A DNA stretch of 64,000 bases from an uncultured delta proteobacterium (GCA_963812015.1 CAWETI010000003.1:1632001-1696000), one strand, 5' to 3'. Shown: positions 2,326 through 23,175, counted from the first letter of the stretch. Notes: generated by a model not told the origin, from the letters alone. Numbers and translations: made by a program.

Positions 2326-3101
2326 TGCCCGGGGCTGCCCGGAAGCCGGGAACAATCTTGACACTCACCTTTTATCTGAGCCTCATCGTCATCCTCCTCA
2401 CTCAGGCGATCCCGGCTGCGGCCAAAGATTTCCTGGTGGCCATTGATATAGGCCACAGTTGCGACGTGCCAGGCGCGATCAGCGCCCGGGGGGTCGGGGA
2501 ATATTGGTTCAATAAGCGGATTGCTGAAGGAGTTAATGCCAGGATTGCGGCGCAAAAAGGCCCGATTAAATCTTTTTTGGTCAATAGTCCCATCAGCGAT
2601 CTGCCTCTGGCGGCCCGACCCCGGTTAGCCCAGGAAAAGCGGGCGGATTTATTGATTTCGATTCATCACGATTCCGTACAACCTGAATGCCTTTCTTATT
2701 GGTGTGTCCAGGGGCAAAAGCAACACTATTGTGATCTCTATCAAGGCTTTTCGCTGTATTATTCCGAGTTGAGTGGCGACCCCGATGACAGCCTGTGGTT
2801 TGCCATAGTTCTCGGCTCCGAAATGTTGAAAAATGGCTTGACGCCCAGTCTGCACCATGAGGCAAAGATGACCGGACCCGATAAGGGTTTGGTGGATAGG
2901 GAACGGGGAATTTTTAAATACAACAAACTGATCGTCTTGAAAAATGCACCTATGCCGGCAGTCTTGCTGGAATGCGGCATAATTGTTAATCGAGACGAAG
3001 AATTAGCCTTGAGCCGGGCGGAATACCAGGAGAAGATAATTACGTCTATCATTGCGGCGATTAAGAAATATTCTCAGTTTATCGGCGCTCACGCCCAATG
3101 A
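2322..3101 (+). CDS. N-acetylmuramoyl-L-alanine amidase (Amidase_3), exported
   Basis: Signal peptide; IDIGH...E...LLISIHHD...PAVLLECG zinc/catalytic motifs. Confidence 0.88.
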   Translation: MMPGAARKPGTILTLTFYLSLIVILLTQAIPAAAKDFLVAIDIGHSCDVPGAISARGVGEYWFNKRIAEGVNARIAAQKGPIKSFLVNSPISDLPLAARPRLAQEKRADLLISIHHDSVQPECLSYWCVQGQKQHYCDLYQGFSLYYSELSGDPDDSLWFAIVLGSEMLKNGLTPSLHHEAKMTGPDKGLVDRERGIFKYNKLIVLKNAPMPAVLLECGIIVNRDEELALSRAEYQEKIITSIIAAIKKYSQFIGAHAQ

Positions 3102-3197
3102 ACCGGACGGGGCGGCCAAGCTTGGCGCGCCGCGGCGCGCCCCTAAGCTCAGCCGCCACCAGGGCCGCCGGGTAATCGGCAGCCTGTCCTCTTCCCT

Positions 3198-3677
3198 TTA
3201 TAGTCCGGGCCCGGCTGCTTTTTGATCTTTTTCTTGGTCATACATCAAAGAGACGGTTTGAGAGACGCGCTTGACCCAGGTTGGATCATCTTTATTTAAA
3301 TCAACTTCATCATAGAAATCGCTAAAATCATGATCAACCAATTTGTAGGGATTATTAATACTATCTGAATCAAAAAATGTATGTCTCAATTCATGTCTTA
3401 TCACTCTTTCAATGTCGGTATCTTCACAATGCCCAAGTAATTTAATATCTAAAAGCATAATGTAATCATAACCATCTTCCGGAGCTTCATTTCGAGATAA
3501 AAACTTAACCAGGGCTGAAGGTTTTACCATTTTACCCAGAACTGTATTGCCTTTTCTCACCATCTTGCTTTTATTAACCAGGAAGAGTATTTTGGCATTA
3601 ACCAAATAAGGGAAATGTTGCGATCTGATTTTTTCACACATTTCCAGAATGTGATCAGAAACATGGTCATACTTCAT
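3198..3677 (-). CDS. Putative HExxH metallopeptidase-like protein (phage metallopeptidase-like)
   Basis: HELRH followed by LVDHDFSDF; AGGAGG RBS before ATG at 3677; AT-rich relative to flanks. Confidence 0.6.
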   Translation of the reverse strand: MKYDHVSDHILEMCEKIRSQHFPYLVNAKILFLVNKSKMVRKGNTVLGKMVKPSALVKFLSRNEAPEDGYDYIMLLDIKLLGHCEDTDIERVIRHELRHTFFDSDSINNPYKLVDHDFSDFYDEVDLNKDDPTWVKRVSQTVSLMYDQEKDQKAAGPGL

Positions 3678-3904
3678 GATAATCCTCCTTTTCATTTGGA
3701 AAAATCTAATCCATAAATATAAACGATAGATCCCCAAAGCCAAAGAGAATTTTTGGGAAACCCGGCATCGCCTCGGCTCTTTCACCACCGGTTGTCGGTC
3801 ATCCCAACCGCCGTCCGGGATTTCAACTCAATAAAAATACATGATATTTCGCTCCGCTCCGCCTGGGCATTAAGGGCAATGGCTAGTTTGCGCCAGGCCA
3901 CTAA

Positions 3905-4033
3905 CAGGCTGTTGAAAAACCATAAGTTCCCCACTTTGTCATTCTGACCGAAGGGAAGAATCTCGTATTTTCAGGTAGATGAGATCATTCGCTGCGCTCA
4001 GGATGACAAAAAAGCCGTTTTCTTAACAGCCTG
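3905..4033. mobile_element. 129-bp MITE with IS5-like terminal inverted repeats and an internal hairpin (copy 1)
   Basis: Ends CAGGCTGTTGAAAAA...TTCTTAACAGCCTG; CTAA direct repeats on both sides; internal GTCATTCTGA...TCAGGATGAC palindrome; second copy at 57587-57715. Confidence 0.75.
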
Positions 4034-4173
4034 CTAAAGGACGGCAATGCGGCCGGAGTATCGGCGAAAGGGAGACATTGGCCGGGGGGCTCGAAATAAT
4101 CAATCTAAAGCTGGAACCGGAGGGCCGGCCGGGTATAATAGCCGGGAAGGGATATTTTTTGGAGGGGTCGCTT

Positions 4174-4623
4174 ATGAACCGGAAGGTGCTCCGACTTATC
4201 GCCATCCTGGCGGCACTGAGCTGCATCGGCCCGGGCCTGGGTTGGGCCCAGGGCCAGACTGACCTGGCCGCGCAAATGAACGCCGGCTACGATCTGTTGG
4301 AACAGGGCAAATTCGACCAGGCGCAAAAGGCCTATGCCGCGGTGCTCCAAAAAGACCCGGGCCACCCTCTGGCCCTGAATAACCTCGCCGCCATCCTGGT
4401 CAAGCAAGGCAAGTATGATCAGGCCCTGGCCTATCTCAAGCAGGCCCTGCCCCGGGCCAAGGGCTTCAAGGTGGACCTCAACCGGGTGTGCAACGTCGAC
4501 GGGGTGTGCGCCGCCAGCCGCATGGGCCAGGACCAGTTCGGGTCCGAAGACCTGGAAGGGGTGGTCAAAAGCAACCTCCTGATGGTGGAAATGGCCAGGT
4601 CCTCCCGCCGGGGCCCGAAATAA
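4174..4623 (+). CDS. Exported small TPR protein
   Basis: Signal peptide ending GWA-Q; TPR units (ALNNLAAILVKQGKYDQALAYLKQAL); GGAGG RBS. Confidence 0.8.
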   Translation: MNRKVLRLIAILAALSCIGPGLGWAQGQTDLAAQMNAGYDLLEQGKFDQAQKAYAAVLQKDPGHPLALNNLAAILVKQGKYDQALAYLKQALPRAKGFKVDLNRVCNVDGVCAASRMGQDQFGSEDLEGVVKSNLLMVEMARSSRRGPK

Positions 4624-8031: not shown

Positions 8032-8118
8032 GCCGGAGTGGTGGAATTGGTAGACGCAGGGGACTCAAAATCCCCCGAGGGCAAGCCTGTGCCGGTTCGA
8101 GTCCGGCCTCCGGCACCA
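8032..8118 (+). tRNA. tRNA-Leu (anticodon CAA), 87 nt, long variable arm, encoded CCA
   Basis: Acceptor stem GCCGGAG/CTCCGGC, D-loop TGGTAGAC, anticodon arm GGGGA-CTCAAAA-TCCCC, T-loop GTTCGAGTC. Confidence 0.97.
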
Positions 8119-8134
8119 TAAGGAAATCAATGGG

Positions 8135-9286
8135 TTAGGCTTCGATAGCCTGACCCTTTTTTGTGGCGCATTTTTGATAGGTGTCATTATAGGTGTCATT
8201 GACTCCCGGATTTTCCCCCACCAGGGCCTTTAATTCATCCCTGCTTACCGCATTATATCGCTTGAAAACGCTCATGGTCTTGTGGCCGGTTGCCGCCATG
8301 ATCCTGAAATAGTCATGTCCCTCAAGGCGCCGGTTGTTTATGAAGGTATGCCGCAAGTCGTGAAAGTTAAAACCGTCTAACCCGGCTTTCCGGCGTGCCG
8401 CTTGAAAGGCTTCTCGAATTGAGGTTATCGGCTTCCCCTCTCTCAAAAAGACCAACACTCCCGGCAAGCCCCTGGGCATGGTCTTGAACATCTCAACCAA
8501 CTCCCCAGCCAGAGGCACAAGCCGCCCCTCATTGGTCTTGCAATCTTCAGGGGCCAGCTTAATGAATCCTTCCTTTAAGTCCACTTGGCCCCATGTAAGC
8601 CCCAGGATTTCACCTAACCTCATGCCGGTATGATAGGCCAGCTTGATTATGGGCTTGAGGTAGGGTGCTGAATGAGTCAAGAGGAGGACATACTCATCTG
8701 AGGATAGCACCCGGTCTCTGACATTGTTTTCTTTCAAGAGTTTCACGCCGTGGGTAGGATTGCGCTCCGCTTTCCCGTTCTTCACGCCTTTTGAGAAGAT
8801 GGTTTTTAGGCAAGCCATTTCCCGGTTTACGGTGGCGGGTTTTGTGGTGCTCCCCTTGTAATTGGTATCGGCAAGGCGCTTTTGCTTATAGCTTTCAACC
8901 ATCGCCGGGGTAATATCCTTCAACAACCGTTCCCCAAAGTGAGGCAAGAGTAACCTCACGCTACGCTGATCCCGGTTGTAACTCCGCTTGGCCTTTACTT
9001 CCGGAAGATCCAAATACCATTTGGCCAGTTCCTTAAATCTGGTCTTGGTATCTGGACTTTTGCGGATATACCGGCCTTCAGTCCTATCCGATAGAACCTC
9101 CCTCAGCCTCTGCTCCGCAGCCGTTTTATTGGGTCCAATCCTCTCCCGCTTACGGTAGCCGCCTACCAGATAGTCAATCCAGTAAACCCTGCCAGCCACT
9201 TTGCTTAGGTTCACCCCGCAGCGGCAACTTTTGGCCTTAGGGCTATTCCGCTTCTTGCAATCGGGGCATTCTACCAGTAGTCCCAT
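8135..9286 (-). CDS. Tyrosine integrase of island 1 with N-terminal Cys-rich ribbon
   Basis: TGMRLGEI (R), CKT (K), FHDLRH, TGHKT, RY catalytic set; adjacent to attL. Confidence 0.95.
   Translation of the reverse strand: MGLLVECPDCKKRNSPKAKSCRCGVNLSKVAGRVYWIDYLVGGYRKRERIGPNKTAAEQRLREVLSDRTEGRYIRKSPDTKTRFKELAKWYLDLPEVKAKRSYNRDQRSVRLLLPHFGERLLKDITPAMVESYKQKRLADTNYKGSTTKPATVNREMACLKTIFSKGVKNGKAERNPTHGVKLLKENNVRDRVLSSDEYVLLLTHSAPYLKPIIKLAYHTGMRLGEILGLTWGQVDLKEGFIKLAPEDCKTNEGRLVPLAGELVEMFKTMPRGLPGVLVFLREGKPITSIREAFQAARRKAGLDGFNFHDLRHTFINNRRLEGHDYFRIMAATGHKTMSVFKRYNAVSRDELKALVGENPGVNDTYNDTYQKCATKKGQAIEA
8178..8199. repeat. Putative integrase arm-type sites, left end (TAGGTGTCAT x2)
   Basis: Two 10-mers at 12-bp spacing; the same pair recurs at 21063-21084 near attR. 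Confidence 0.65.
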
Positions 9287-10253: not shown

Positions 10254-11258
10254 ATGAAAAAACCTAAACTACCCCCCGGTTTTGAACCTGTCTATGACAA
10301 GCCCTTTGTCCCATGGTGGCAAAAAAAGGAGCAATGGGTCTGGATCATTTTTGTGGCGATCTATGTCACATTGCGTCCTTATTTCCCTGGTTGGGAATTC
10401 CTTCTGATTTACTGCTTGATAATAACGATAGGCCAGACTCTCTTGTCAAAGTTCGGCAAGGAAAAGAATTCGAGCAAGCAGGCTGAGCCATTAGCCAAAG
10501 AAATTCAGGATGAGGCGATTAAAAGTAAACATTATGGTGAGTGGTTGGAGAAGGAGGTAAAAGACCATCCTTCTCAAGTAGTTGAAGTAAAGAATATAGA
10601 GATTACTGGACCCAAAGATAAAGATACTGCCCTCACAGAATCCGATGAGGAGATCAAGAAAAAAATAGGAGCCGAACAAAGAAAGCAAATACCTATTGAG
10701 GAATCAAAAGATAATGTGACTACGATAATCGTTTGGTCGGTTATTATAGGATTGGTATTGATGCTTATTGCGGTAGTCATTAATAGCTCTCATACACCGC
10801 AAACAACAGGCCAATCTACAATACAGTTAGAACAGTTATTGAATAGAAATGGAATTGCTTTAATGGGAGAAGGCAATTATCATCAAGCAATCACCGAGTT
10901 TGATAAAATTATTGATTTAGAACCGTTGGATCATGCTGCATATAACAACCGGGGAGAGGTCTATCTAAGATTAAATAATCATAAACAAGCTATGGAAGAT
11001 TTTAATAGAGCAATAATTGCTATTAACCATGGACATGAACCTAATCCTAATGGTTTAGCAAGTTTTGCAGAAAGTAATAAAAGATTTGGTCTCTATATAC
11101 TAGAAGATTCTCTTCAAGCTAAGTATTATAGAAATCGTGGATTGGCTTACGAAAAATTGGGCAATAAGAACCAAGCAATCAAAGATTTGAAAATCGCTGC
11201 TAGGGTAGGCGATAAAGAGGCACAAAAGTATTTACTTTCAAAAGGGATGACTTGGTAG
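10254..11258 (+). CDS. Membrane-anchored TPR protein
   Basis: About 3 TM segments, then TPRs (AYNNRGEVYLRL...; YYRNRGLAYEKLG); AT-rich. Confidence 0.8.
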   Translation: MKKPKLPPGFEPVYDKPFVPWWQKKEQWVWIIFVAIYVTLRPYFPGWEFLLIYCLIITIGQTLLSKFGKEKNSSKQAEPLAKEIQDEAIKSKHYGEWLEKEVKDHPSQVVEVKNIEITGPKDKDTALTESDEEIKKKIGAEQRKQIPIEESKDNVTTIIVWSVIIGLVLMLIAVVINSSHTPQTTGQSTIQLEQLLNRNGIALMGEGNYHQAITEFDKIIDLEPLDHAAYNNRGEVYLRLNNHKQAMEDFNRAIIAINHGHEPNPNGLASFAESNKRFGLYILEDSLQAKYYRNRGLAYEKLGNKNQAIKDLKIAARVGDKEAQKYLLSKGMTW

Positions 11259-11586: not shown

Positions 11587-12666
11587 CTATACCAGGCTAC
11601 GCCCTACGCCTTGGCCTCGGCGATAGAGGATATCAAGGTTCTTCTGGGCATTCACATCTCCCTGGTCGGCGGCCTTGCGAAACCACCTGGCCGCCTCGAC
11701 ATAATCCTGGGGTACGCCTTTGCCATCGTAATACAGTCCTCCAAGATTGTTCTGGGCAGCCGCATAACCCTGGTCGGCAGCCTTACGATACCATCTGGCT
11801 GCCTCGGCATAATCCTGGGGTACGCCTTGACCATAGTCGTATAGGAGACCCAGGCCGTACTGGGCAGCCGCAATACCCTGGTCGGCGGCCTTGCGATACC
11901 ACCTGGCCGCCTCGGCATAATCTTGGGGTACGCCTTGGCCCTTTTCATACTGGACTCCCAGGTTCATTTGGGCATCCGCATTCCCCTGGTCGGCGGCCTT
12001 GCGAAACCACCTGGCCGCCTCGGCATAATCCTGGGGTACACCTTGGCCCTTGTAATAAAGTTCTCCCAGGTTAGCCTGGGCAGCCGCATATCCCTGGTCG
12101 GCAGCCTTTCGGTACCATCTGGCCGCCTCAGCATAATCCTGGGGTACGCCTTGGCCCTTTTTATGCAGGACACCAAGGTTTCTTTGGGCATTCACATCTC
12201 CCTGGTCGGCGGCCTTGCGAAACCACCTGGCCGCCTCAACATTATCCTGGGGTACGCCTTGGCCCAGGTAATACAGCGCTCCCAGGTTATTCTGGGCATC
12301 CGCATAACCTTGGGCCGCAGCCTTCCGATACCACCTGGCAGCCTCAGCATAATCCTGGGGCACGCCTTGGCCCTTGTCATATAGGTAACCAAGGTTCTTC
12401 TGGGCAACTGCATTCCCCTGGTCGGCGGCCTTGCGAAACCACCTGGCCGCCTCGGCATAATCCTGGGGTACGCCTTTGCCATCGTAATACAGCCTTCCCA
12501 GGTTCTTCTGAGCATCCGCATCCCCCTGGTCGGTGGCCTCCGTCAATGGCCCACCAGCAGTAGAGATTGCTGTAGATGGGATTTCAGTTGGACTTGTGGT
12601 TACACAACCAGCCCCAGATAAAATCAAGGATCCAATGAGAAGAAAAAATGTTAAATTCCGCAACAT
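11587..12666 (-). CDS. Sel1-like repeat lipoprotein (8 full and 1 partial 36-aa repeats)
   Basis: Lipobox-like GAGC; repeated AQxNLGxLYxxGQGVPQDYAEAARW(F/Y)RKAADQG. Confidence 0.92.
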   Translation of the reverse strand: MLRNLTFFLLIGSLILSGAGCVTTSPTEIPSTAISTAGGPLTEATDQGDADAQKNLGRLYYDGKGVPQDYAEAARWFRKAADQGNAVAQKNLGYLYDKGQGVPQDYAEAARWYRKAAAQGYADAQNNLGALYYLGQGVPQDNVEAARWFRKAADQGDVNAQRNLGVLHKKGQGVPQDYAEAARWYRKAADQGYAAAQANLGELYYKGQGVPQDYAEAARWFRKAADQGNADAQMNLGVQYEKGQGVPQDYAEAARWYRKAADQGIAAAQYGLGLLYDYGQGVPQDYAEAARWYRKAADQGYAAAQNNLGGLYYDGKGVPQDYVEAARWFRKAADQGDVNAQKNLDILYRRGQGVGRSLV

Positions 12667-13008: not shown

Positions 13009-13490
13009 AGCGGCCAACTCCTTTGCCAACCACCTTAAAAGATATAGGACCAAAAGATATAGGGGACTTTCTGAATAATACGGCTAAAAATTCTTATTTT
13101 AATTGGAGAAACCCCTGATGAGACTTAGCCCAAAGCGCCCCTTCCCTTATCATCCCCCGACTTTGAAGAAACCCAGCTCCATAAGTTCATAGGAAAAACT
13201 GACCGGATGACATGACCTTCAGGGGCGATTCCTGGACTTCTATGTGGGGCACCCTTACTTTACCCCCCTGGCCCACACCTGATCGTGCCTTTTTGGCTTT
13301 CAAAATGGGCCCTCAGCCCTGTGACCACCTCCAATCGATCCATCACTCTAATATAACCTGTGGATCAGTTTGCTGGGGAGGCAGATCAGGAGTCTCATCT
13401 CTGGGTTTGAAGACTCTAATAAGCCTTGTCAAAACCCCTTTTTTGAAGGTATGCTGAATGAACTAAATAGATCAAAATGAGATCCACGCC

Positions 13491-14465
13491 ATGGAATTCG
13501 ATAGCTTATTGGAATTTATTGGGAAGCAGATGAGCATGAGCCATATTTATCAACCCCTCCTGATAAAATCTCTTGTAGAGGCAGGGGGGTCAGCAACTCT
13601 GAGGCAATTAGCTCAAGCCTTTCTTCTCCAGGATGAAAGTCAACTGATCTATTATGAAAACAAAATCAAACAAATGCCTTTGAGGGTTTTATTAAAACAT
13701 AATGTAATTAAGAGAGATGGTGAATTTATTTCACTAAACACTAAGAATCTAACTTACCAACAAAAAGCCCAAATAAAGATGATTTGTGGAAAGAGGTTGC
13801 AAGAATATATCCAGAAAAAGGGTCTGGGCATATGGGATTATCGAATACTTGATACTGAACCAGTTTCTGGGAGTTTGCGATCCATAGTTTTTAATGAAAG
13901 TGGAGGCCGTTGTGCCAAGTGCGGAATAACTAAAAGAGACCGACCATTAGATGTAGACCACATAAAACCTCGCTCAAAAAAAGGGAAGACTGTTTACGAA
14001 AATCTTCAAATTTTATGCTCAAAATGTAATCGTGAAAAAGGAAATAAAGAAGAAATTGATTACAGAAAAGACCTCCCCTCAGACTCTGATCCATCTTGTC
14101 TTTTTTGTTCTGCGGATATTCGGGACAGAAAAATTGAAGAGTATGAATCTGTTTTTGCCGTAAAAGATAACTTCCCAGTTTCTCAAGGGCATCTTCTTGT
14201 CATTCCTTTTAGGCACTCTCCCGATTTTTTCAGCATGACTTCAAGGGAAAAAATGGAAGCAGCGGATCTAATCCGCATCTTGCAAAAAAAAATATCTCAA
14301 GATGATCCATCAGTCACAGGATTCAATTTAGGGGTAAACTGCGGCATATCCGCTGGGCAAACCATTATGCACGCCCACATCCACTTAATTCCCCGGAGAG
14401 ATGGCGATACTCCTGACCCCAGAGGTGGGGTACGAGGGGTGATCCCAGAAAAGATGGCTTATTGA
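13491..14465 (+). CDS. HNH endonuclease-HIT hydrolase fusion
   Basis: CAKC...LDVDHIKP...ENLQILCSKCN (HNH), then CLFC...FPVSQGHLLVIP...AGQTIMHAHIHLIPRR (HIT triad). Confidence 0.9.
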   Translation: MEFDSLLEFIGKQMSMSHIYQPLLIKSLVEAGGSATLRQLAQAFLLQDESQLIYYENKIKQMPLRVLLKHNVIKRDGEFISLNTKNLTYQQKAQIKMICGKRLQEYIQKKGLGIWDYRILDTEPVSGSLRSIVFNESGGRCAKCGITKRDRPLDVDHIKPRSKKGKTVYENLQILCSKCNREKGNKEEIDYRKDLPSDSDPSCLFCSADIRDRKIEEYESVFAVKDNFPVSQGHLLVIPFRHSPDFFSMTSREKMEAADLIRILQKKISQDDPSVTGFNLGVNCGISAGQTIMHAHIHLIPRRDGDTPDPRGGVRGVIPEKMAY

Positions 14466-14869
14466 TCGTGACTCCTATGAAAACTGTGACTGCGGCGATT
14501 TTGATTGTCGAAGGCAGGATATTGATTGCCAAAAGAAGGTTTGGGGACAGACTTGCGGAAAAATGGGAGTTTCCTGGGGGGAAGATAGAGCATGGAGAAA
14601 CCCCAGAGCAATGTTTGAGGAGAGAGATACTGGAAGAATTTCAGATCAAAGTTTCCATAGGCCAATTTTTTGGCGAAAGCATTTACCATTATGACCATGG
14701 CTCCATCAGGCTATTAGCCTATCGCACTTATTGGGAAAGTGGAGAATTAATTTCCAAGGCCCATGAGGAATATCAATGGATATCCCAGGATCAGCTAAAA
14801 GATTATGACTTTGCTCCTGCTGATATTCCATTCGTCGAGATGTTGAGGAGGGGTGAAATTGAGCTTTGA
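14462..14869 (+). CDS. MutT/NudG-like NUDIX (d)NTP pyrophosphohydrolase
   Basis: WEFPGGKIEHGETPEQCLRREILEEF Nudix box; C-terminal FAPADIP. Confidence 0.92.
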   Translation: MIVTPMKTVTAAILIVEGRILIAKRRFGDRLAEKWEFPGGKIEHGETPEQCLRREILEEFQIKVSIGQFFGESIYHYDHGSIRLLAYRTYWESGELISKAHEEYQWISQDQLKDYDFAPADIPFVEMLRRGEIEL

Positions 14870-15677
14870 GCATGGCCTAAAGCCTGGAAATACCATCTCC
14901 AATAAGGAGCTCCAGGAGCTATTCAAATGCAGTTCGCAAGGGGGCATGCGTCGCTCTCATCAAACCAATACTCTGGTCATCGTCTCCGATCCTACCAAAG
15001 CCATTTATGAAGACCGCTGGATAGATGGCATGTTTCATTATACAGGCATGGGGTTGGAGGGTGATCAGAGTCTTAATTTTGCCCAAAACAAGACATTAGC
15101 AAGATCTCAAAGCTCTGTGATTGAAATCTTTCTGTTCGAGGTCTTCGAGCGGGGCAATTATACCTTCATCGGTAAGGTGGAATTGGCAGGCTCTCCTTAT
15201 CAAGAAGAGCAACTTGATAAAAATGAAAACCTGCGCAAGGTATGGGTATTCCCGCTAAAAACAGCAGCGGGGGAAGCCCATGTTTCTTTACCAGAAACCA
15301 CTTTTTTGAAAAAGGTGAAGCAAAAGGAGAGAGAGGCCAGAAGGCTTTCCAACAAAGAACTGGAAAAGCGAGCCACCTTCTCTAAGAAAGGAGTGGGAGT
15401 TAGGGAAGTTTTTTCGAAAGCCTTCGAGCGCAATCCTTATGTGGCTGAACTCGCCAAACGGAAGGCCAACGGTCTTTGCCAGCTTTGTGAGAACCCCGCC
15501 CCTTTTCAGGATGGGGCTGGAAAACCCTTCTTAGAGACTCACCACATCGAGTGGCTATCTATGGGTGGGGATGACAGTATTGTTAATACTGTTGCCCTTT
15601 GCCCCAATTGCCACAGGAAGATGCACATCCTAAACCTCAAGGCAGATATAGAGAAGTTGGAATCCAATGCTCCCTGA
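14853..15677 (+). CDS. SRA-like domain + HNH nuclease (McrA/ScoMcrA-like, putative modification-dependent restriction enzyme)
   Basis: QGGMRRS...TNTLVIVSD...YEDRW...HYTGMGLEGDQ N-domain; ERNPYV...CQLC...FLETHHIEWLSMGGDD...NTVALCPNCHRKMH. Confidence 0.85.
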   Translation: MKLSFEHGLKPGNTISNKELQELFKCSSQGGMRRSHQTNTLVIVSDPTKAIYEDRWIDGMFHYTGMGLEGDQSLNFAQNKTLARSQSSVIEIFLFEVFERGNYTFIGKVELAGSPYQEEQLDKNENLRKVWVFPLKTAAGEAHVSLPETTFLKKVKQKEREARRLSNKELEKRATFSKKGVGVREVFSKAFERNPYVAELAKRKANGLCQLCENPAPFQDGAGKPFLETHHIEWLSMGGDDSIVNTVALCPNCHRKMHILNLKADIEKLESNAP

Positions 15678-17043: not shown

Positions 17044-17340
17044 TCAATGACGCACCCTCAAGCTGGGGTTGAACTCCTCCAACTCCCCCCAATAACAAGC
17101 CATGCACAGCGGCACCCCGTTGAAGGTCCCGAAAAATACGCCGCCGCATTGTGGGCAGAAGGAGCGTAGAAAATACAAGACGGCATCTTTATGCTGGCGC
17201 ACCAGGTCCAGGAGAGGGGACACCGCCGCTGGGTCTGGGGCATCCTGACCTTCGTACCTTAACCGGATACTCTCGCCTTCCAGGTGGGGCCGGTAGCCCA
17301 TGTGGGCCAGCTTCCGCACCGCCTCAATTCCAGGGTTCAT
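17044..17340 (-). CDS. Small hypothetical protein (TubC_N-like N-terminus, zinc-finger C-terminus) coupled to the primase gene
   Basis: ATGA overlap with the primase stop; LEGESIRLR...VRQHKDAVL; CPQC...CMAC. Confidence 0.6.
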   Translation of the reverse strand: MNPGIEAVRKLAHMGYRPHLEGESIRLRYEGQDAPDPAAVSPLLDLVRQHKDAVLYFLRSFCPQCGGVFFGTFNGVPLCMACYWGELEEFNPSLRVRH

Positions 17341-19682
17341 CGGATCACCACCTCCTTGAGGTCTTTATCGGGATTCAGGGGCTGCCCCTCGACCTTAACA
17401 ACCTGGTCTATGGCCTCATCCCGCCCATCAATTATCGACAAACCGGGGTCCGGGGTAGCCGGGTCATTTGGCTCCGGGTCACGCATCTCAGAAGGAGGGG
17501 GATTAGATTCATCGGTATCCCCTGCAACAGTGCAACACCAGGAATCATCGTTAATGATTTCAGCATCTTGAGGTGTTGCACCAATTGATGCGCTATTGGG
17601 AGCAGGTGCACCAGCGCAACAGGCTTTCAGCCACTGAGGGTCAGGCAATCCCTGGATTTCTGGCAGTGGTTCACCCATTTGCAGGTCCCACGGTTGTCCC
17701 TTTTTGGTTTCCCGGTTGACTATCCAGCCCCGTTTAATGGCTGCGTTCACCCGGCGGGAGGCCGTACTGCGGTGGATGCCAAGTCGAGCCGCCAAAGTGG
17801 TGGCCGTGATGCTCTTGCCCCTATCGAGCATCTCCGTGACCGCCTGAACAGTGGCCCGCAGTTCTGTTGATGCCCCGGTCAAGGTGGCCTCATACATCGG
17901 CCCCACCAGTTCATAGACCGTGGCGTAATCCTCAATCTGGGCGATGACCTGTCCGTCCTTATTTCTTTGGCGCTGCCTATGACGGATGATTGCCACAGAT
18001 TTAATCAAGGAAGTGAGCCTGGCAAAGTCCCGCATGATCCGTGTCGCTGTGGCCCTGCGTGCAATCTCAGATGCAAGTTCCTTGATAAAGGGCACTACCG
18101 CCTCCCAAGGAACCAGGGATTGAAGGTAACTTTGAAAGGCGATAAGTGCGTCATCCGGGGCCGTGGCCCCGTTCAGTTCCAGTTCAGCCTGGGCAAGAAG
18201 GGCCGCCCCGATTTTGTCCGGGGTATCCATCACATCAAGGGAAAAAACTCTGGTATCAAGCTGGTATCCCAAGCGTCGGGTTGAGGTAGAGATCATCACG
18301 GTGGGGCCGGGCTTGTGGATCTCTTTGACGCCGTATTCCCCTGTCTCGGGGTTTTTGATGGTTACTTTGTAGCTTAAGCTATGCTCTTGCAGGAGTGTCC
18401 GCACCGCCGATGCCGCCGGATTGTCTTCGCCTGCTGGTAAGGAGTCAGCCTCCCCAAAAATCAGGACCCGGTGTTGGAGGTCGGCATCGTCATAAATCAG
18501 TACCCGTGGAGAACCGGCGTCAATGACATGGTAGGCTTCTTCTGGTAGGAGCCGGATAACGATCCCCAGGAGATAGGATTTCCCGGCACCGGCCTGAGCC
18601 ACCAGCAGTAGGTGGACCGGCATAGCCCCGGATCGCATCGCCAGCAACCGTGAGGTGGCGGCAAGATAGGTAATCATCGGCTGCCCCACATCGCCGCCAT
18701 ACCCCTGGGAAAGAATGGCCTGGCGCACGAGGGCCAGAGGGTCAGGGGTCAATAGGACTGCCTCAGCAGCCTTTTCCAGTTCTTTTAGCCTGGCTGCACG
18801 CTCCGTCTGGCGAAGCGTCTCAGCCGGGATTGCTGCCGATTTGAGTTTGTCCAGCAGGGCCGGAATATCTTCACCTTTGAGGTGGGCTTCATTCAGGTCT
18901 TTGAAGCCATCCGGGGCCGGAATGACCTTCAGAGCAGGGATGTGTTTGAGAATCTTTCCGGGTAGTTCCGGTGCGTCGGGCTCCTGCCAGAGATAGACCG
19001 TCAATCCTTTCAGGAGTTCAACCCACGCAGGCTTTAATGTGGATTTTCCCGGCAACCCCAGGGCGGGGATACCATGAGGCCAGCATGTCCAGCAGTCGGT
19101 TTCTCCTTCCACCAGCAGAACCCAACCGGCCTCCCGAATATGCCGAAGCCGCCAGAGCCCATAGAGCAGAACCTTATCGCCTTTACGCCAGGTAAAGCGT
19201 TGGGCTCCGGTGAGGCAATGCCGGAAACGCACCCCCACAACTTCGCCAGCTTCATTCATGTATGGAATTCGTACGACTATTGCACCACGCTGTTTAGCCT
19301 GCAATACCCCCCAGGCTTTCAACCCTGTTGGGCCATCTACTTGAAAACCCTTGGCCTTCGCCAGTTCTTCAAGGGTCAAACCGGGAGGTGTTGCGGTGTT
19401 GCACCCCTTACCGGCAGATTTATCACCCCCTCCCTTCCTCTTCCCGTTGCCGGAAGTCCATAAACCCCGTTCCTTCAGGGAGGCAATCACCCGATCTTGG
19501 GGGCAGCCGCCGAAACATTTAACCAAGATTTTCCCGTCTTTCTCGGTCACCGATAGGGAAGGGGTAGAATCGTCGTGAGCCGGACAATGCACCAAGCCAC
19601 CGGGTTTGTGGCAACCACAGGCAGGATCATCGCATTGCAGGGCCTGCCGGATGGTTTCGACGGTAGGCGTCTGGGGGTTCAT
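17337..19682 (-). CDS. Primase-helicase-like replication protein (zinc finger, TOPRIM, P-loop ATPase, wHTH)
   Basis: CPAHDDSTPSLSV...CFGGC; LVEGETD (TOPRIM); AQAGAGKS Walker A; C-terminal TLAARLGIHRSTASRRV HTH. Confidence 0.85.
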   Translation of the reverse strand: MNPQTPTVETIRQALQCDDPACGCHKPGGLVHCPAHDDSTPSLSVTEKDGKILVKCFGGCPQDRVIASLKERGLWTSGNGKRKGGGDKSAGKGCNTATPPGLTLEELAKAKGFQVDGPTGLKAWGVLQAKQRGAIVVRIPYMNEAGEVVGVRFRHCLTGAQRFTWRKGDKVLLYGLWRLRHIREAGWVLLVEGETDCWTCWPHGIPALGLPGKSTLKPAWVELLKGLTVYLWQEPDAPELPGKILKHIPALKVIPAPDGFKDLNEAHLKGEDIPALLDKLKSAAIPAETLRQTERAARLKELEKAAEAVLLTPDPLALVRQAILSQGYGGDVGQPMITYLAATSRLLAMRSGAMPVHLLLVAQAGAGKSYLLGIVIRLLPEEAYHVIDAGSPRVLIYDDADLQHRVLIFGEADSLPAGEDNPAASAVRTLLQEHSLSYKVTIKNPETGEYGVKEIHKPGPTVMISTSTRRLGYQLDTRVFSLDVMDTPDKIGAALLAQAELELNGATAPDDALIAFQSYLQSLVPWEAVVPFIKELASEIARRATATRIMRDFARLTSLIKSVAIIRHRQRQRNKDGQVIAQIEDYATVYELVGPMYEATLTGASTELRATVQAVTEMLDRGKSITATTLAARLGIHRSTASRRVNAAIKRGWIVNRETKKGQPWDLQMGEPLPEIQGLPDPQWLKACCAGAPAPNSASIGATPQDAEIINDDSWCCTVAGDTDESNPPPSEMRDPEPNDPATPDPGLSIIDGRDEAIDQVVKVEGQPLNPDKDLKEVVIR

Positions 19683-19885
19683 TCTCCCGCTCCCCGCCGG
19701 GTCCGGGGTTCAACGACGGCATTATTTATGAATTCTTGAATGTCTTCGACATGAAGCATTGTACGCCTCCCGATCTTCCGATAACGGATACGCCGCTGAC
19801 TGATCCAGCCACGCAAAGTAAAGACTGAAATGTTCAATCGTTCGGCTGCCTCTCCCACACTAAGAAGTTGATGAACTCGATTCAT
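19679..19885 (-). CDS. Excisionase-like HTH_17 DNA-binding protein
   Basis: LLSVGEAAERLNISVFTLRGWI...YRKIGRR. Confidence 0.88.
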   Translation of the reverse strand: MNRVHQLLSVGEAAERLNISVFTLRGWISQRRIRYRKIGRRTMLHVEDIQEFINNAVVEPRTRRGAGE

Positions 19886-21203: not shown

Positions 21204-21259
21204 ACTCAAAATCCCCCGGGTGAAAGCCTGTGCCGGTTCGAGTCCGGCCTCCGGCACCA
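21204..21259 (+). repeat. attR of island 1 (displaced 3' half of tRNA-Leu); its 3' end is also the left att of island 2
   Basis: Matches 8063-8118 at 53 of 56 nt. Confidence 0.93.
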
Positions 21260-21514: not shown

Positions 21515-22738
21515 ATGCGCACCGATAAGCTGACCGATCCAAAGATCCGGCAAGCTAAGCCGGCAGACAAACCCTACAAACTCTTCGACGGCGGCGGCCT
21601 GTTTCTGCTGGTTCAGCCAAGTGGTTCGAAGCTCTGGCGGCTAAAGTACCGCTTCGGCGGAAAGGAAAAGCTCCTTGCCATCGGCAGCTATGACAAGCGC
21701 GTCTCGCTAAAGAAGGCTCGAGAGGAGCGCGACAAGGCCAGGGATCAATTGGTGGAGGGCATTGACCCAGCCGCCTCAAGAAGAAAGGAAAAGTATGCCG
21801 AGCGGGAGCAGGCTGAGAACACCTTCCGGGCTATTGCTCTAAATTGGGCCGAGACATACGGTGCCCGCTGGACTGAATCGCACCGTGCCCGGGTGGTGGC
21901 CTCCCTGGAGGCTGACGCCTTCCCTTCCCTTGGCGACCTTACCATCAAGGAAATTAGCCCACCGATGGTCCTGGAGGTCATCCGGGCAGTCGAGTCCCGC
22001 GGCGCGCTCGATGTCGCATCCCGGGTTTTACAGCGGACCAATGCCATTTTTCGATATGCCATCCAGACCGGCCGGGCGATTTATAACCCGGCGTCAGACA
22101 TGAAGGGGGTCCTGAAAACCCGCAAGGTAGAGCATCGTTCCACAATCTCCCGAGGTGAGCTGCCGCACTTCCTCATGAAGCTCGATTCTTATTCCGGCAA
22201 CCCTATCACCAAACTGGCCCTGAGGCTCATCATATTGACCTTCGTACGGACTGGAGAGCTTCGCGGCGCACGCTGGGAGGAATTCGATGTCGGACAGGGG
22301 GAATGGCGCATTCCGGCAGAGCGCATGAAGATGCGGTCGCCGCACATTGTCCCCTTGTCGCCTCAAGCCCTGGCCGTCATCGAAGTATTGAGGCCGCTAA
22401 CCGGTCAATTCGATTTACTCTTTCCGTCTCAGCGAGACCAACAAAGGCCTATCTCCGAAAATACTCTCCTTTATGCCCTCTACCGCCTCGGCTATCATAA
22501 GCGCGCTACTGTGCACGGGTTCCGGGCATTGGCGAGCACGATCCTAAACGAGACCGGATTTCGGCCGGATGTCATTGAGCGCCAGCTTGCCCATGTTGAG
22601 CGGAACAAAGTCCGGGCAGCATATCATAGATCTGAATACTTGGAAGAGCGCCAAAAGATGATGGACTGGTGGGGAGAATGGATTGAATCTATGGCGAATG
22701 AGCAGAAAGTTGTTCTCCTCCGGAGACAGCCGACATGA
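21515..22738 (+). CDS. P4-family tyrosine integrase (Arm-DNA-bind_3)
   Basis: KLTDPKIR...KLFDGGGL...GSKLWRLKYR; RTGELR, MKMR, TVHGFR, QLAH, AAYHR. Confidence 0.96.
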   Translation: MRTDKLTDPKIRQAKPADKPYKLFDGGGLFLLVQPSGSKLWRLKYRFGGKEKLLAIGSYDKRVSLKKAREERDKARDQLVEGIDPAASRRKEKYAEREQAENTFRAIALNWAETYGARWTESHRARVVASLEADAFPSLGDLTIKEISPPMVLEVIRAVESRGALDVASRVLQRTNAIFRYAIQTGRAIYNPASDMKGVLKTRKVEHRSTISRGELPHFLMKLDSYSGNPITKLALRLIILTFVRTGELRGARWEEFDVGQGEWRIPAERMKMRSPHIVPLSPQALAVIEVLRPLTGQFDLLFPSQRDQQRPISENTLLYALYRLGYHKRATVHGFRALASTILNETGFRPDVIERQLAHVERNKVRAAYHRSEYLEERQKMMDWWGEWIESMANEQKVVLLRRQPT

Positions 22739-23040: not shown

Positions 23041-23175
23041 ATATAGCAGATAGCGAAAGCCCTGAAGTCGGGGTTCCTCTTAGATGGTAGACCGCTTCCC
23101 GCTCATCTCCCTGCCTCCCTTCGATCCATTACTCTAAACATAGCTCGTAGATCAGTTTTCAGGGGGTATGTCACC
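23041..23175 (+). repeat. Module-junction repeat, right portion (copy R1)
   Basis: Aligns by eye with 28697-28827 (ATAGCAGATAGCGAAAG...AAGTCGGG...ACCGCTTCC.GCTCATCTCCC...GATCAGTTTTC.GGGGG). Confidence 0.7.

What the first reader, a model, noticed from the sequence alone, without database searches (positions are those of the whole stretch)
13491..15677. Candidate anti-phage operon: HNH-HIT fusion + NUDIX + SRA-like-HNH
Seen: three overlapping, AT-rich genes in a satellite cargo slot, with intact HNH (twice), HIT (HAHIH) and Nudix motifs. Established: SRA-HNH/McrA-type proteins cut modified DNA; HIT and Nudix enzymes hydrolyse nucleotides; satellites are defence hotspots. Inference: a two-pronged system against phages with modified bases, cutting modified DNA while destroying modified dNTP precursors, or with HIT acting as a nucleotide sensor that gates its fused HNH. 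No cognate methyltransferase is present, consistent with type IV logic. I do not recognise this trio as a named system.
Basis: partly seen in the sequence, partly recalled or inferred. Interest (0 to 1): 0.78.

Follow-up and report, generated by a model that had tools for sequence, protein, structure and literature searches.

The report
Restriction nucleases paired with nucleotide cleaners
These three intact genes are two separable modules, not one conserved trio: a widespread pair (a nuclease predicted to cut DNA with modified cytosines plus a small enzyme that likely destroys modified nucleotides) and a mobile nuclease fused to a different nucleotide-processing domain, whose target is untested.

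Summary
The three ORFs and their catalytic motifs are real and lie in a 13.1-kb element integrated at tRNA-Leu.

The trio is not a conserved unit. None of the loci fetched held all three genes. Of 64 loci of gene 1 (winged helix-HNH-HIT), 1 had a Nudix and 0 an SRA gene.

Genes 2 and 3 are the conserved unit. A Nudix abuts or is fused to the SRA-HNH nuclease in 52 of 121 loci (29 of 78 clusters), with three fusions. Related Nudix genes also flank SauUSI-like enzymes, a link published in 2011 whose purpose is still unknown.

Gene 1's N-terminus is a winged helix. Its best folds are Cdc6 and the phosphorothioate reader of ScoMcrA, tied, and a deeper profile test did not support that kinship. Its HIT slot holds a MazG-like tail in one relative, and the same HIT subfamily is fused to a SauUSI-like enzyme.

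Best reading: type IV restriction nucleases carrying accessory nucleotide-pool cleaners. HIT gating of HNH has no support. New variant of a known kind.

The parts
13491..14465 (+). Gene 1, 324 aa: winged helix (res ~1-112) + zinc HNH (141-186) + HIT (203-324, HAHIH at 294-298)
13491..13826 (+). Winged-helix domain of gene 1, predicted DNA reader; no Pfam family; fold ties Cdc6/ORC winged helix and the ScoMcrA sulfur-binding domain
   Evidence: profile test negative
14477..14869 (+). Gene 2, MutT/NudG-class Nudix hydrolase, 130 aa from ATG 14477 (longest ORF starts at TTG 14462); matches PADLOC PDC-S07
14853..15677 (+). Gene 3, SRA (res ~3-140) + McrA-type zinc HNH (185-262); overlaps the end of gene 2; start GTG 14853 or TTG 14859
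8063..8118 (+). Left att copy, 3' end of tRNA-Leu (8032-8118)
21204..21259 (+). Right att copy, 95% identical, 13,141 nt from the left copy
8135..9286 (-). Tyrosine integrase of the element
17337..19682 (-). Primase-like replication protein of the element
   Evidence: phrog_239, phrog_47
19679..19885 (-). Excisionase-like HTH_17 protein

Best explanation
The locus is a conserved Nudix + SRA-HNH gene pair joined by a separate winged helix-HNH-HIT gene; the SRA-HNH protein is predicted to cut DNA carrying 5-methyl- or 5-hydroxymethylcytosine, the Nudix likely destroys the matching modified dCTP, and gene 1 is likely a second reader-nuclease with its own nucleotide-cleaning domain. Shown: domain anatomy, intact active sites, the pairing and fusion of genes 2+3, and the loose linkage of gene 1. 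Inferred from family knowledge (TagI, ScoMcrA): SRA binds the modified cytosine and the HNH dimer cuts nearby. Inferred from kinship to NudG/Orf135 and gene context: the Nudix removes 5m/5hm-dCTP made by phage enzymes or recycled from digested DNA. That would keep the mark out of the host chromosome, where the nuclease would attack it, and would also drain a phage that needs the precursor. The Nudix would be an accessory, not needed for cutting. Gene 1's mark and its HIT substrate are unknown; a cleaning role is inferred because Nudix, HIT and MazG-like domains fill the same slot beside such nucleases.
For: Nudix adjacent or fused: 28 of 77 metagenome, 23 of 41 viral and 1 of 3 phylum loci with a close SRA domain; 29 of 78 clusters at 70% identity. 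Controls: 0 of 17 distant SRA loci, 1 of 64 gene-1 loci over 668 kb, and only 1 of the 29 best Nudix relatives in the host phylum lies beside an SRA-HNH (neighbours mostly housekeeping). Fusions in both orders: L131, L282, L142. Stand-alone two-gene operon with a 4-nt overlap on a Priestia plasmid. One branch (SH-aLRT 96, quick tree) mixes SRA-linked Nudix with Nudix beside SauUSI-like and DUF3427 enzymes. Fold of gene 3: ScoMcrA E 4e-12, TagI 8e-8, SUVH5 SRA. TagI and ScoMcrA prefer 5mC/5hmC DNA and act on T4gt (passages). E. coli Orf135 hydrolyses 5-methyl-dCTP (passage). Deleting the Nudix beside sauUSI did not lift restriction (passage, 'data not shown'). The HIT subfamily is fused to a SauUSI-like PLD-helicase in L495; a MazG/PRA-PH-like tail replaces HIT in L063 (weak, E 0.019).
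Against: No activity is measured. 69 of 121 SRA-HNH loci have no linked Nudix (some have short flanks). The Nudix scores as well against MutT (92.9 bits, cut-off 97.9) as against NudG (91.9, cut-off 156), so its substrate is open. SRA-linked Nudix genes are not one clade and interleave with housekeeping ones (15 changes; unfinished, poorly resolved tree). The pocket Y52/D54/Y63 is one residue shorter than TagI Y55/D58/Y67, and the ScoMcrA SRA is reported not to conserve the classic pocket. The S. aureus Nudix deletion strain was obtained with SauUSI intact, so self-protection is not essential in lab growth. The host has a C5 methyltransferase with Vsr, a possible conflict. Gene 1 and gene 3 share contigs more than chance (3 against 0.18 expected).
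Confidence: 0.5

Rival explanations
1. Same two modules, but the Nudix is a general MutT-type cleaner (oxidised dNTPs) that limits mutagenesis during repair of breaks, with no link to the base the nuclease reads.
For: NCBIfam scores tie MutT and NudG; best PDB relatives include MutT proteins; SRA-linked Nudix genes interleave with housekeeping ones; related Nudix genes also sit beside type I HsdR/HsdM genes.
Against: Repeated fusion and translational overlap with 5mC-type readers; a branch shared between unrelated modified-cytosine nucleases; the host has five other Nudix matches; phage relatives lie beside thymidylate-synthase homologues, pointing to pyrimidine dNTPs.
Confidence: 0.2
2. A dual-mark cassette, like ScoMcrA split in two: gene 1 reads phosphorothioate DNA through an SBD-like winged helix and its HIT desulfurates released dNMPS, while gene 3 reads modified cytosine and the Nudix removes modified dCTP.
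For: SBD structures give the longest alignments to the N-domain (5zmo Z 8.3, rmsd 3.5, 99 residues; 8h0l Z 7.4, 95). Y20/Q21 and M62/P63/V66 mirror SBDSpr Y31/Q32 and Y78/P79/A82 and are conserved in 54-60 of 61 sequences. Human HINT1 desulfurates dNMPS. No dndC found in the host.
Against: Cdc6/ORC winged helices score as well or better (Z 9.2). Profile comparison with 20 SBD sequences scored 12.7 against shuffles of mean 10.9 and max 17.2; the 4-sequence result (21.5) did not hold. No NF045808 hit for gene 1. P63 is replaced in 4 of 8 divergent homologues. 0 of 19 SBD-HNH loci have a HIT within 1.5 kb. The HIT is also fused to a SauUSI-like enzyme.
Confidence: 0.12
3. One reading: an integrated three-gene system in which HIT senses a nucleotide and gates its fused HNH.
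For: Tight packing in the window; three gene-1/gene-3 protein pairs share source, contig count and contig length; L094 has both genes with another gene between; a ~95% identical relative in run X2 has a contig across the gene 1/2 junction and pieces of gene 3.
Against: No fetched locus holds the trio; HIT is absent or replaced in many relatives; its catalytic triad is invariant, as expected of an enzyme rather than a binding sensor; GC falls from 47% to 40% across the cassette.
Confidence: 0.1
4. Gene 1 is a signal-linked effector: HIT turns over Ap4A or another adenylated signal, as proposed for Thoeris ThsC, and the nuclease acts as an abortive-infection toxin rather than a modification reader.
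For: HIT resembles Ap4A phosphorylases and Fhit; weak ThsC hit (E 9e-10); TIR, Schlafen and Abi_alpha genes are among its neighbours.
Against: No conserved partner: the commonest neighbour cluster occurs in 10 loci and is another HNH nuclease; reader-HNH architecture is typical of type IV enzymes.
Confidence: 0.08

Closest known systems
SauUSI + linked MutT/Nudix gene (Xu 2011, PMC3141236; Monk 2012, PMC3312211)
   Same: A 5mC/5hmC-type IV nuclease tightly linked to a ~130-aa MutT-like Nudix of unknown role; Nudix relatives share a tree branch.
   Different: The nuclease here is a 274-aa SRA-HNH, not a PLD-helicase-DUF3427; fusions exist; a third gene is added.
TagI / ScoA3IV SRA-HNH and the SRA-HNH half of ScoMcrA (PDB 6ghs, 5zmm)
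   Same: SRA reader plus zinc HNH; best structural matches.
   Different: About 17-21% identity; HNH closer to EcoKMcrA; pocket spacing differs; 'nudix' does not occur in the TagI, Han 2015 or Lutz 2019 texts (counts).
PADLOC PDC-S07
   Same: Gene 2 matches almost the whole model at 154 bits.
   Different: Listed as a single-gene candidate; the preprint's main text does not mention S07; here it is half of a pair.
SBD-HNH phosphorothioate-dependent enzymes (SprMcrA, EcoWI)
   Same: Winged-helix-like N-domain plus HNH; similar YQP and (Y/M)P motifs.
   Different: No profile-level kinship shown; shorter domain; C-terminal HIT.
Thoeris type II ThsC (PMC8565338)
   Same: HIT protein as an accessory of a defence system.
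   Different: No ThsA/ThsB; HIT is fused to a nuclease.

Membership tests
SRA-HNH type IV restriction enzymes (gene 3) | N-terminal SRA fold | tested here: met
   Model pLDDT 85; Foldseek hits ScoMcrA, TagI, SUVH5, MspJI
SRA-HNH type IV restriction enzymes (gene 3) | Intact zinc HNH catalytic domain | tested here: met
   C209/C212/H230/H231/N245/C250/C253/H254 conserved in 117-120 of 120; EcoKMcrA E 3e-17
SRA-HNH type IV restriction enzymes (gene 3) | Tyr/Asp/Tyr pocket for the flipped cytosine | tested here: inconclusive
   Y52, D54, Y63 conserved (119, 109, 110 of 120) but spacing is one residue shorter than TagI Y55/D58/Y67; no residue-level structural alignment obtained
SRA-HNH type IV restriction enzymes (gene 3) | Cleavage depends on 5mC/5hmC | not testable with these tools
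   Needs an assay
SRA-HNH type IV restriction enzymes (gene 3) | No cognate methyltransferase nearby | tested here: met
   None among the 14 ORFs in and beside the element scanned; a C5 methyltransferase lies ~175 kb away
SauUSI system | PLD-helicase-DUF3427 nuclease | tested here: not met
   No such domains in the three genes
SauUSI system | Linked MutT-like Nudix gene | tested here: met
   Gene 2 overlaps gene 3
PADLOC PDC-S07 | Full-length match to the profile | tested here: met
   154 bits, model 8-130 of 135; PADLOC's own rule file not run
SBD-HNH (gene 1) | SBD fold | tested here: inconclusive
   5zmo Z 8.3, rmsd 3.5, 99 aligned, tied with Cdc6 Z 9.2, rmsd 2.6, 90 aligned
SBD-HNH (gene 1) | Sequence kinship (NF045808 or SBD profile) | tested here: not met
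   No NF045808 hit; hhalign within shuffle range
SBD-HNH (gene 1) | Sulfur pocket residues | tested here: inconclusive
   Y20/Q21/M62/P63/V66 resemble SBDSpr pocket; Pro lost in 4 of 8 divergent homologues
SBD-HNH (gene 1) | Binds and cuts phosphorothioate DNA | not testable with these tools
   Needs an assay
Thoeris type II / Septu | ThsA+ThsB, or PtuA ATPase, beside the HIT or HNH gene | tested here: not met
   Only domain-level ThsC and PtuB hits; no partners in the element
Phage satellite | Integrase, att repeats, excisionase, primase, no virion genes | tested here: met
   (no structural hit among the 11 ORFs scanned by PHROGs)
Phage satellite | Helper-hijacking or packaging genes; excision | tested here: inconclusive
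   Several small ORFs have no family; no excision joint in shallow contigs

The most novel reading that the evidence does not exclude
Type IV restriction enzymes carry mark-matched nucleotide cleaners as self-protection, and this cassette holds two such units: a phosphorothioate reader-nuclease whose HIT domain desulfurates thio-nucleotides, and a modified-cytosine reader-nuclease whose Nudix destroys modified dCTP.
Probability: 0.12. Interest if true: 0.8.

Novelty: new variant of a known kind. Interest (0 to 1): 0.42.

Why it matters
Why type IV restriction genes travel with a Nudix gene has been open since SauUSI in 2011. This work shows the link extends to compact SRA-HNH enzymes, including fusions, and that HIT and MazG-like domains appear in the same slot. 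The two-gene pair is about 1.2 kb and occurs on plasmids of cultured Bacillota, so it is an easy system for testing whether restriction enzymes need nucleotide-pool cleaning to avoid self-attack or use it to starve modified-base phages. Gene 1 represents a large uncharacterised reader-nuclease family whose target mark is unknown.

Tried and rejected
Trio conservation: sought in GTDB genomes, metagenomes and viral contigs; not found. The GTDB pattern scan missed divergent gene-1 members that one search found, so it is incomplete, and the metagenome scan read 10 of 64 parts.

SBD kinship by profile: promising with 4 sequences, lost with 20.

Nudix tree: careful search unfinished, quick tree only, 125 columns; monophyly neither shown nor excluded.

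Nudix hit list did not contain the three contig lengths shared by gene 1 and gene 3; only the best 120 of 1605 are shown, so this is no evidence of absence.

Plasmids hold no full-length gene 1 at E 1e-20.

Expression: no RNA holder listed. Excision: no att joint in shallow contigs.

Promoter and terminator scans were at chance level.

ESM Atlas gave only unnamed or HNH clusters.

The VIA search for gene 3 and the representatives search for the N-domain were not obtained. No complex prediction was sent, as no binding is claimed.

Full report
Observation. Three open + strand ORFs lie at 13491-14465, 14462-14869 and 14853-15677. Gene 1 has HNH and HIT domains, gene 2 is a Nudix, gene 3 has a C-terminal HNH. 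Catalytic and zinc residues are conserved in 117-120 of 120 sequences of each nuclease family and the Nudix box glutamates are invariant in 29. GC is 39.7, 43.4 and 47.0% against 55.1% for the window. The genes lie in a 13.1-kb element bounded by a 56-nt repeat of the tRNA-Leu 3' end, with integrase, excisionase and primase. No match to the gene-3 profile was found in the 12 same-family genomes searched.

Gene 3. The model (pLDDT 85) matches ScoMcrA, TagI, EcoKMcrA, SUVH5 and MspJI. The HNH is closest in sequence to EcoKMcrA. Homologues carry PF26348 (I recall this as a ScoMcrA-like SRA family, the name comes from no call). Y52, D54 and Y63 are conserved and resemble the TagI pocket Y55/D58/Y67 (passages) with one residue less; the ScoMcrA SRA is said not to conserve the classic pocket (passages). 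TagI and ScoMcrA prefer 5mC/5hmC DNA and act on T4gt (passages). Modified-cytosine dependence is therefore inferred, not shown.

Genes 2+3 are the conserved unit. Of 80 metagenome, 80 viral and 5 phylum loci fetched, 77, 41 and 3 had a close SRA domain (the rest were dropped before counting). A Nudix was adjacent or fused in 28, 23 and 1 of these; with at least 500 nt on both sides, 17 of 45 and 22 of 39; after clustering at 70% identity, 29 of 78. Controls: 0 of 17 distant SRA loci; 1 Nudix in 64 gene-1 loci; 1 of the 29 best phylum Nudix relatives beside an SRA-HNH. Three single-chain fusions occur, in both orders. A Priestia plasmid carries the pair alone with a 4-nt overlap.

The Nudix. 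It matches PADLOC PDC-S07 at 154 bits. PDC systems are untested candidates found embedded in BREX, DISARM, type I RM and Hma (passages; the preprint's supplementary tables were not visible and may describe S07's context). It scores equally against MutT and NudG models, below both cut-offs. Viral relatives sit beside SauUSI-like and DUF3427 enzymes, type I RM genes and phage thymidylate-synthase homologues. In a quick, poorly resolved tree of 107 rows, one branch (SH-aLRT 96) mixes SRA-linked and SauUSI-linked Nudix, but SRA-linked ones are scattered overall. Xu 2011 noted at least 60 SauUSI-like enzymes linked to a Nudix of unexamined function (passage). Monk 2012 reported that deleting it did not lift restriction (passage). 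E. coli Orf135 hydrolyses 5-methyl-dCTP (passage and reference title).

Gene 1 is a separate module. The search gave 2123 hits, the best 120 at 59% identity or more over full length. Of 64 genome and viral loci with its N-domain (46 with a HIT match, 41 of those with 1300 nt or more downstream), one had a Nudix and none an SRA gene; five more from Pseudomonadota had neither within 1.5 kb. Neighbours vary and are often defence genes: an HNH_2 nuclease cluster in 10 loci, McrA-type HNH, Mrr, type I RM, a SauUSI-like enzyme, Schlafen helicase with MazG. Against my reading, gene 1 and gene 3 do meet more than chance. L094 has both (1 of 77 metagenome loci). Three protein pairs share source, contig count and contig length, against 0.18 expected from offset controls; I could not read those contigs, so a full trio there is possible. 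One of them, P0161, begins with the same VKL extension that here arises from the Nudix overlap (inference). A ~95% identical relative in run X2 has a contig across the gene 1/2 junction and separate pieces of gene 3; no contig spans all three.

The N-domain of gene 1. It models as a winged helix. Best folds are Cdc6/ORC (Z 9.2, rmsd 2.6, 90 residues) and the ScoMcrA sulfur-binding domain (Z 8.3, rmsd 3.5, 99 residues), which the tool counts as tied. Y20/Q21/M62/P63/V66 resemble the SBDSpr pocket (passages). A profile comparison looked positive with 4 SBD sequences and fell to shuffle level with 20, and P63 is lost in 4 of 8 divergent homologues. A phosphorothioate reader is thus a lead only. 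It would fit the HIT, since human HINT1 desulfurates dNMPS (passages), and no dndC was found in the host. But 0 of 19 SBD-HNH loci had a HIT nearby, and the same HIT subfamily is fused to a SauUSI-like PLD-helicase. In L063 a MazG/PRA-PH-like tail replaces the HIT (weak match).

Mechanism. Most likely, gene 3 cuts DNA with modified cytosines, and the Nudix removes modified dCTP, which keeps the mark out of host DNA and may starve phages that use it. Gene 1 is probably a second reader-nuclease with a built-in cleaner, picked up separately. The anatomy and linkage are shown; all substrates are inferred. One C5 methyltransferase with Vsr elsewhere in the genome could conflict with gene 3 unless sequence contexts differ.

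Literature. Ten searches found no paper describing a Nudix + SRA-HNH pair or a winged helix-HNH-HIT fusion. The library lacks most subscription journals, I read passages only, and no supplements were opened (those of Lutz 2019 and Payne 2024 may bear on novelty).

Verdict. Real and intact; a new variant of known type IV restriction logic rather than a new three-gene system. Interest 0.42.

Noticed in passing
window 10254-11258 (+) and 11587-12666 (-): Other cargo of the same element: a membrane TPR protein and a Sel1-repeat protein with 108-nt repeats.
   Followed up: no
window 21515-22738 (+): A second, P4-like integrase directly after the right att copy with no cargo behind it; looks like the remnant of another element at the same tRNA.
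   Followed up: partly
window 13328-13378 and 23114-23165: A ~50-nt non-coding sequence upstream of gene 1 recurs after the second integrase (D15/D18) and matches short pieces in unrelated runs; possibly a mobile-element end or recombination site.
   Followed up: no
G000:C3:1469183-1472995 (L438): C5 DNA methyltransferase with a Vsr-like gene and an integrase fragment in the same genome.
   Followed up: partly
L367, L368, L371 (viral contigs), ~3010-4410: Related Nudix genes overlap thymidylate-synthase homologues in phages, suggesting a base-modification cluster.
   Followed up: partly
L076:1879-3555: Nitrosopumilus protein holding both a gene-1-like winged helix and an SRA domain, followed by a tiny HNH ORF; supports the winged helix as a reader module.
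   Followed up: partly
L495:1-1923 (-): HIT domain fused to the N-terminus of a SauUSI-like PLD-helicase.
   Followed up: partly
L128:2122-3378, L143:784-2043: EVE-SRA-HNH proteins with two readers in tandem; L143 is followed by a Nudix fragment.
   Followed up: no
L095:4446-6850: SRA-HNH, stand-alone HIT and a second HNH protein in a row: the window's ingredients in another order, without Nudix.
   Followed up: partly
L015:6291-7159; L054/L055/L057 downstream of the match: Gene-1 relatives followed by HD + 5'-nucleotidase genes, or by Schlafen helicase + MazG-like genes.
   Followed up: no
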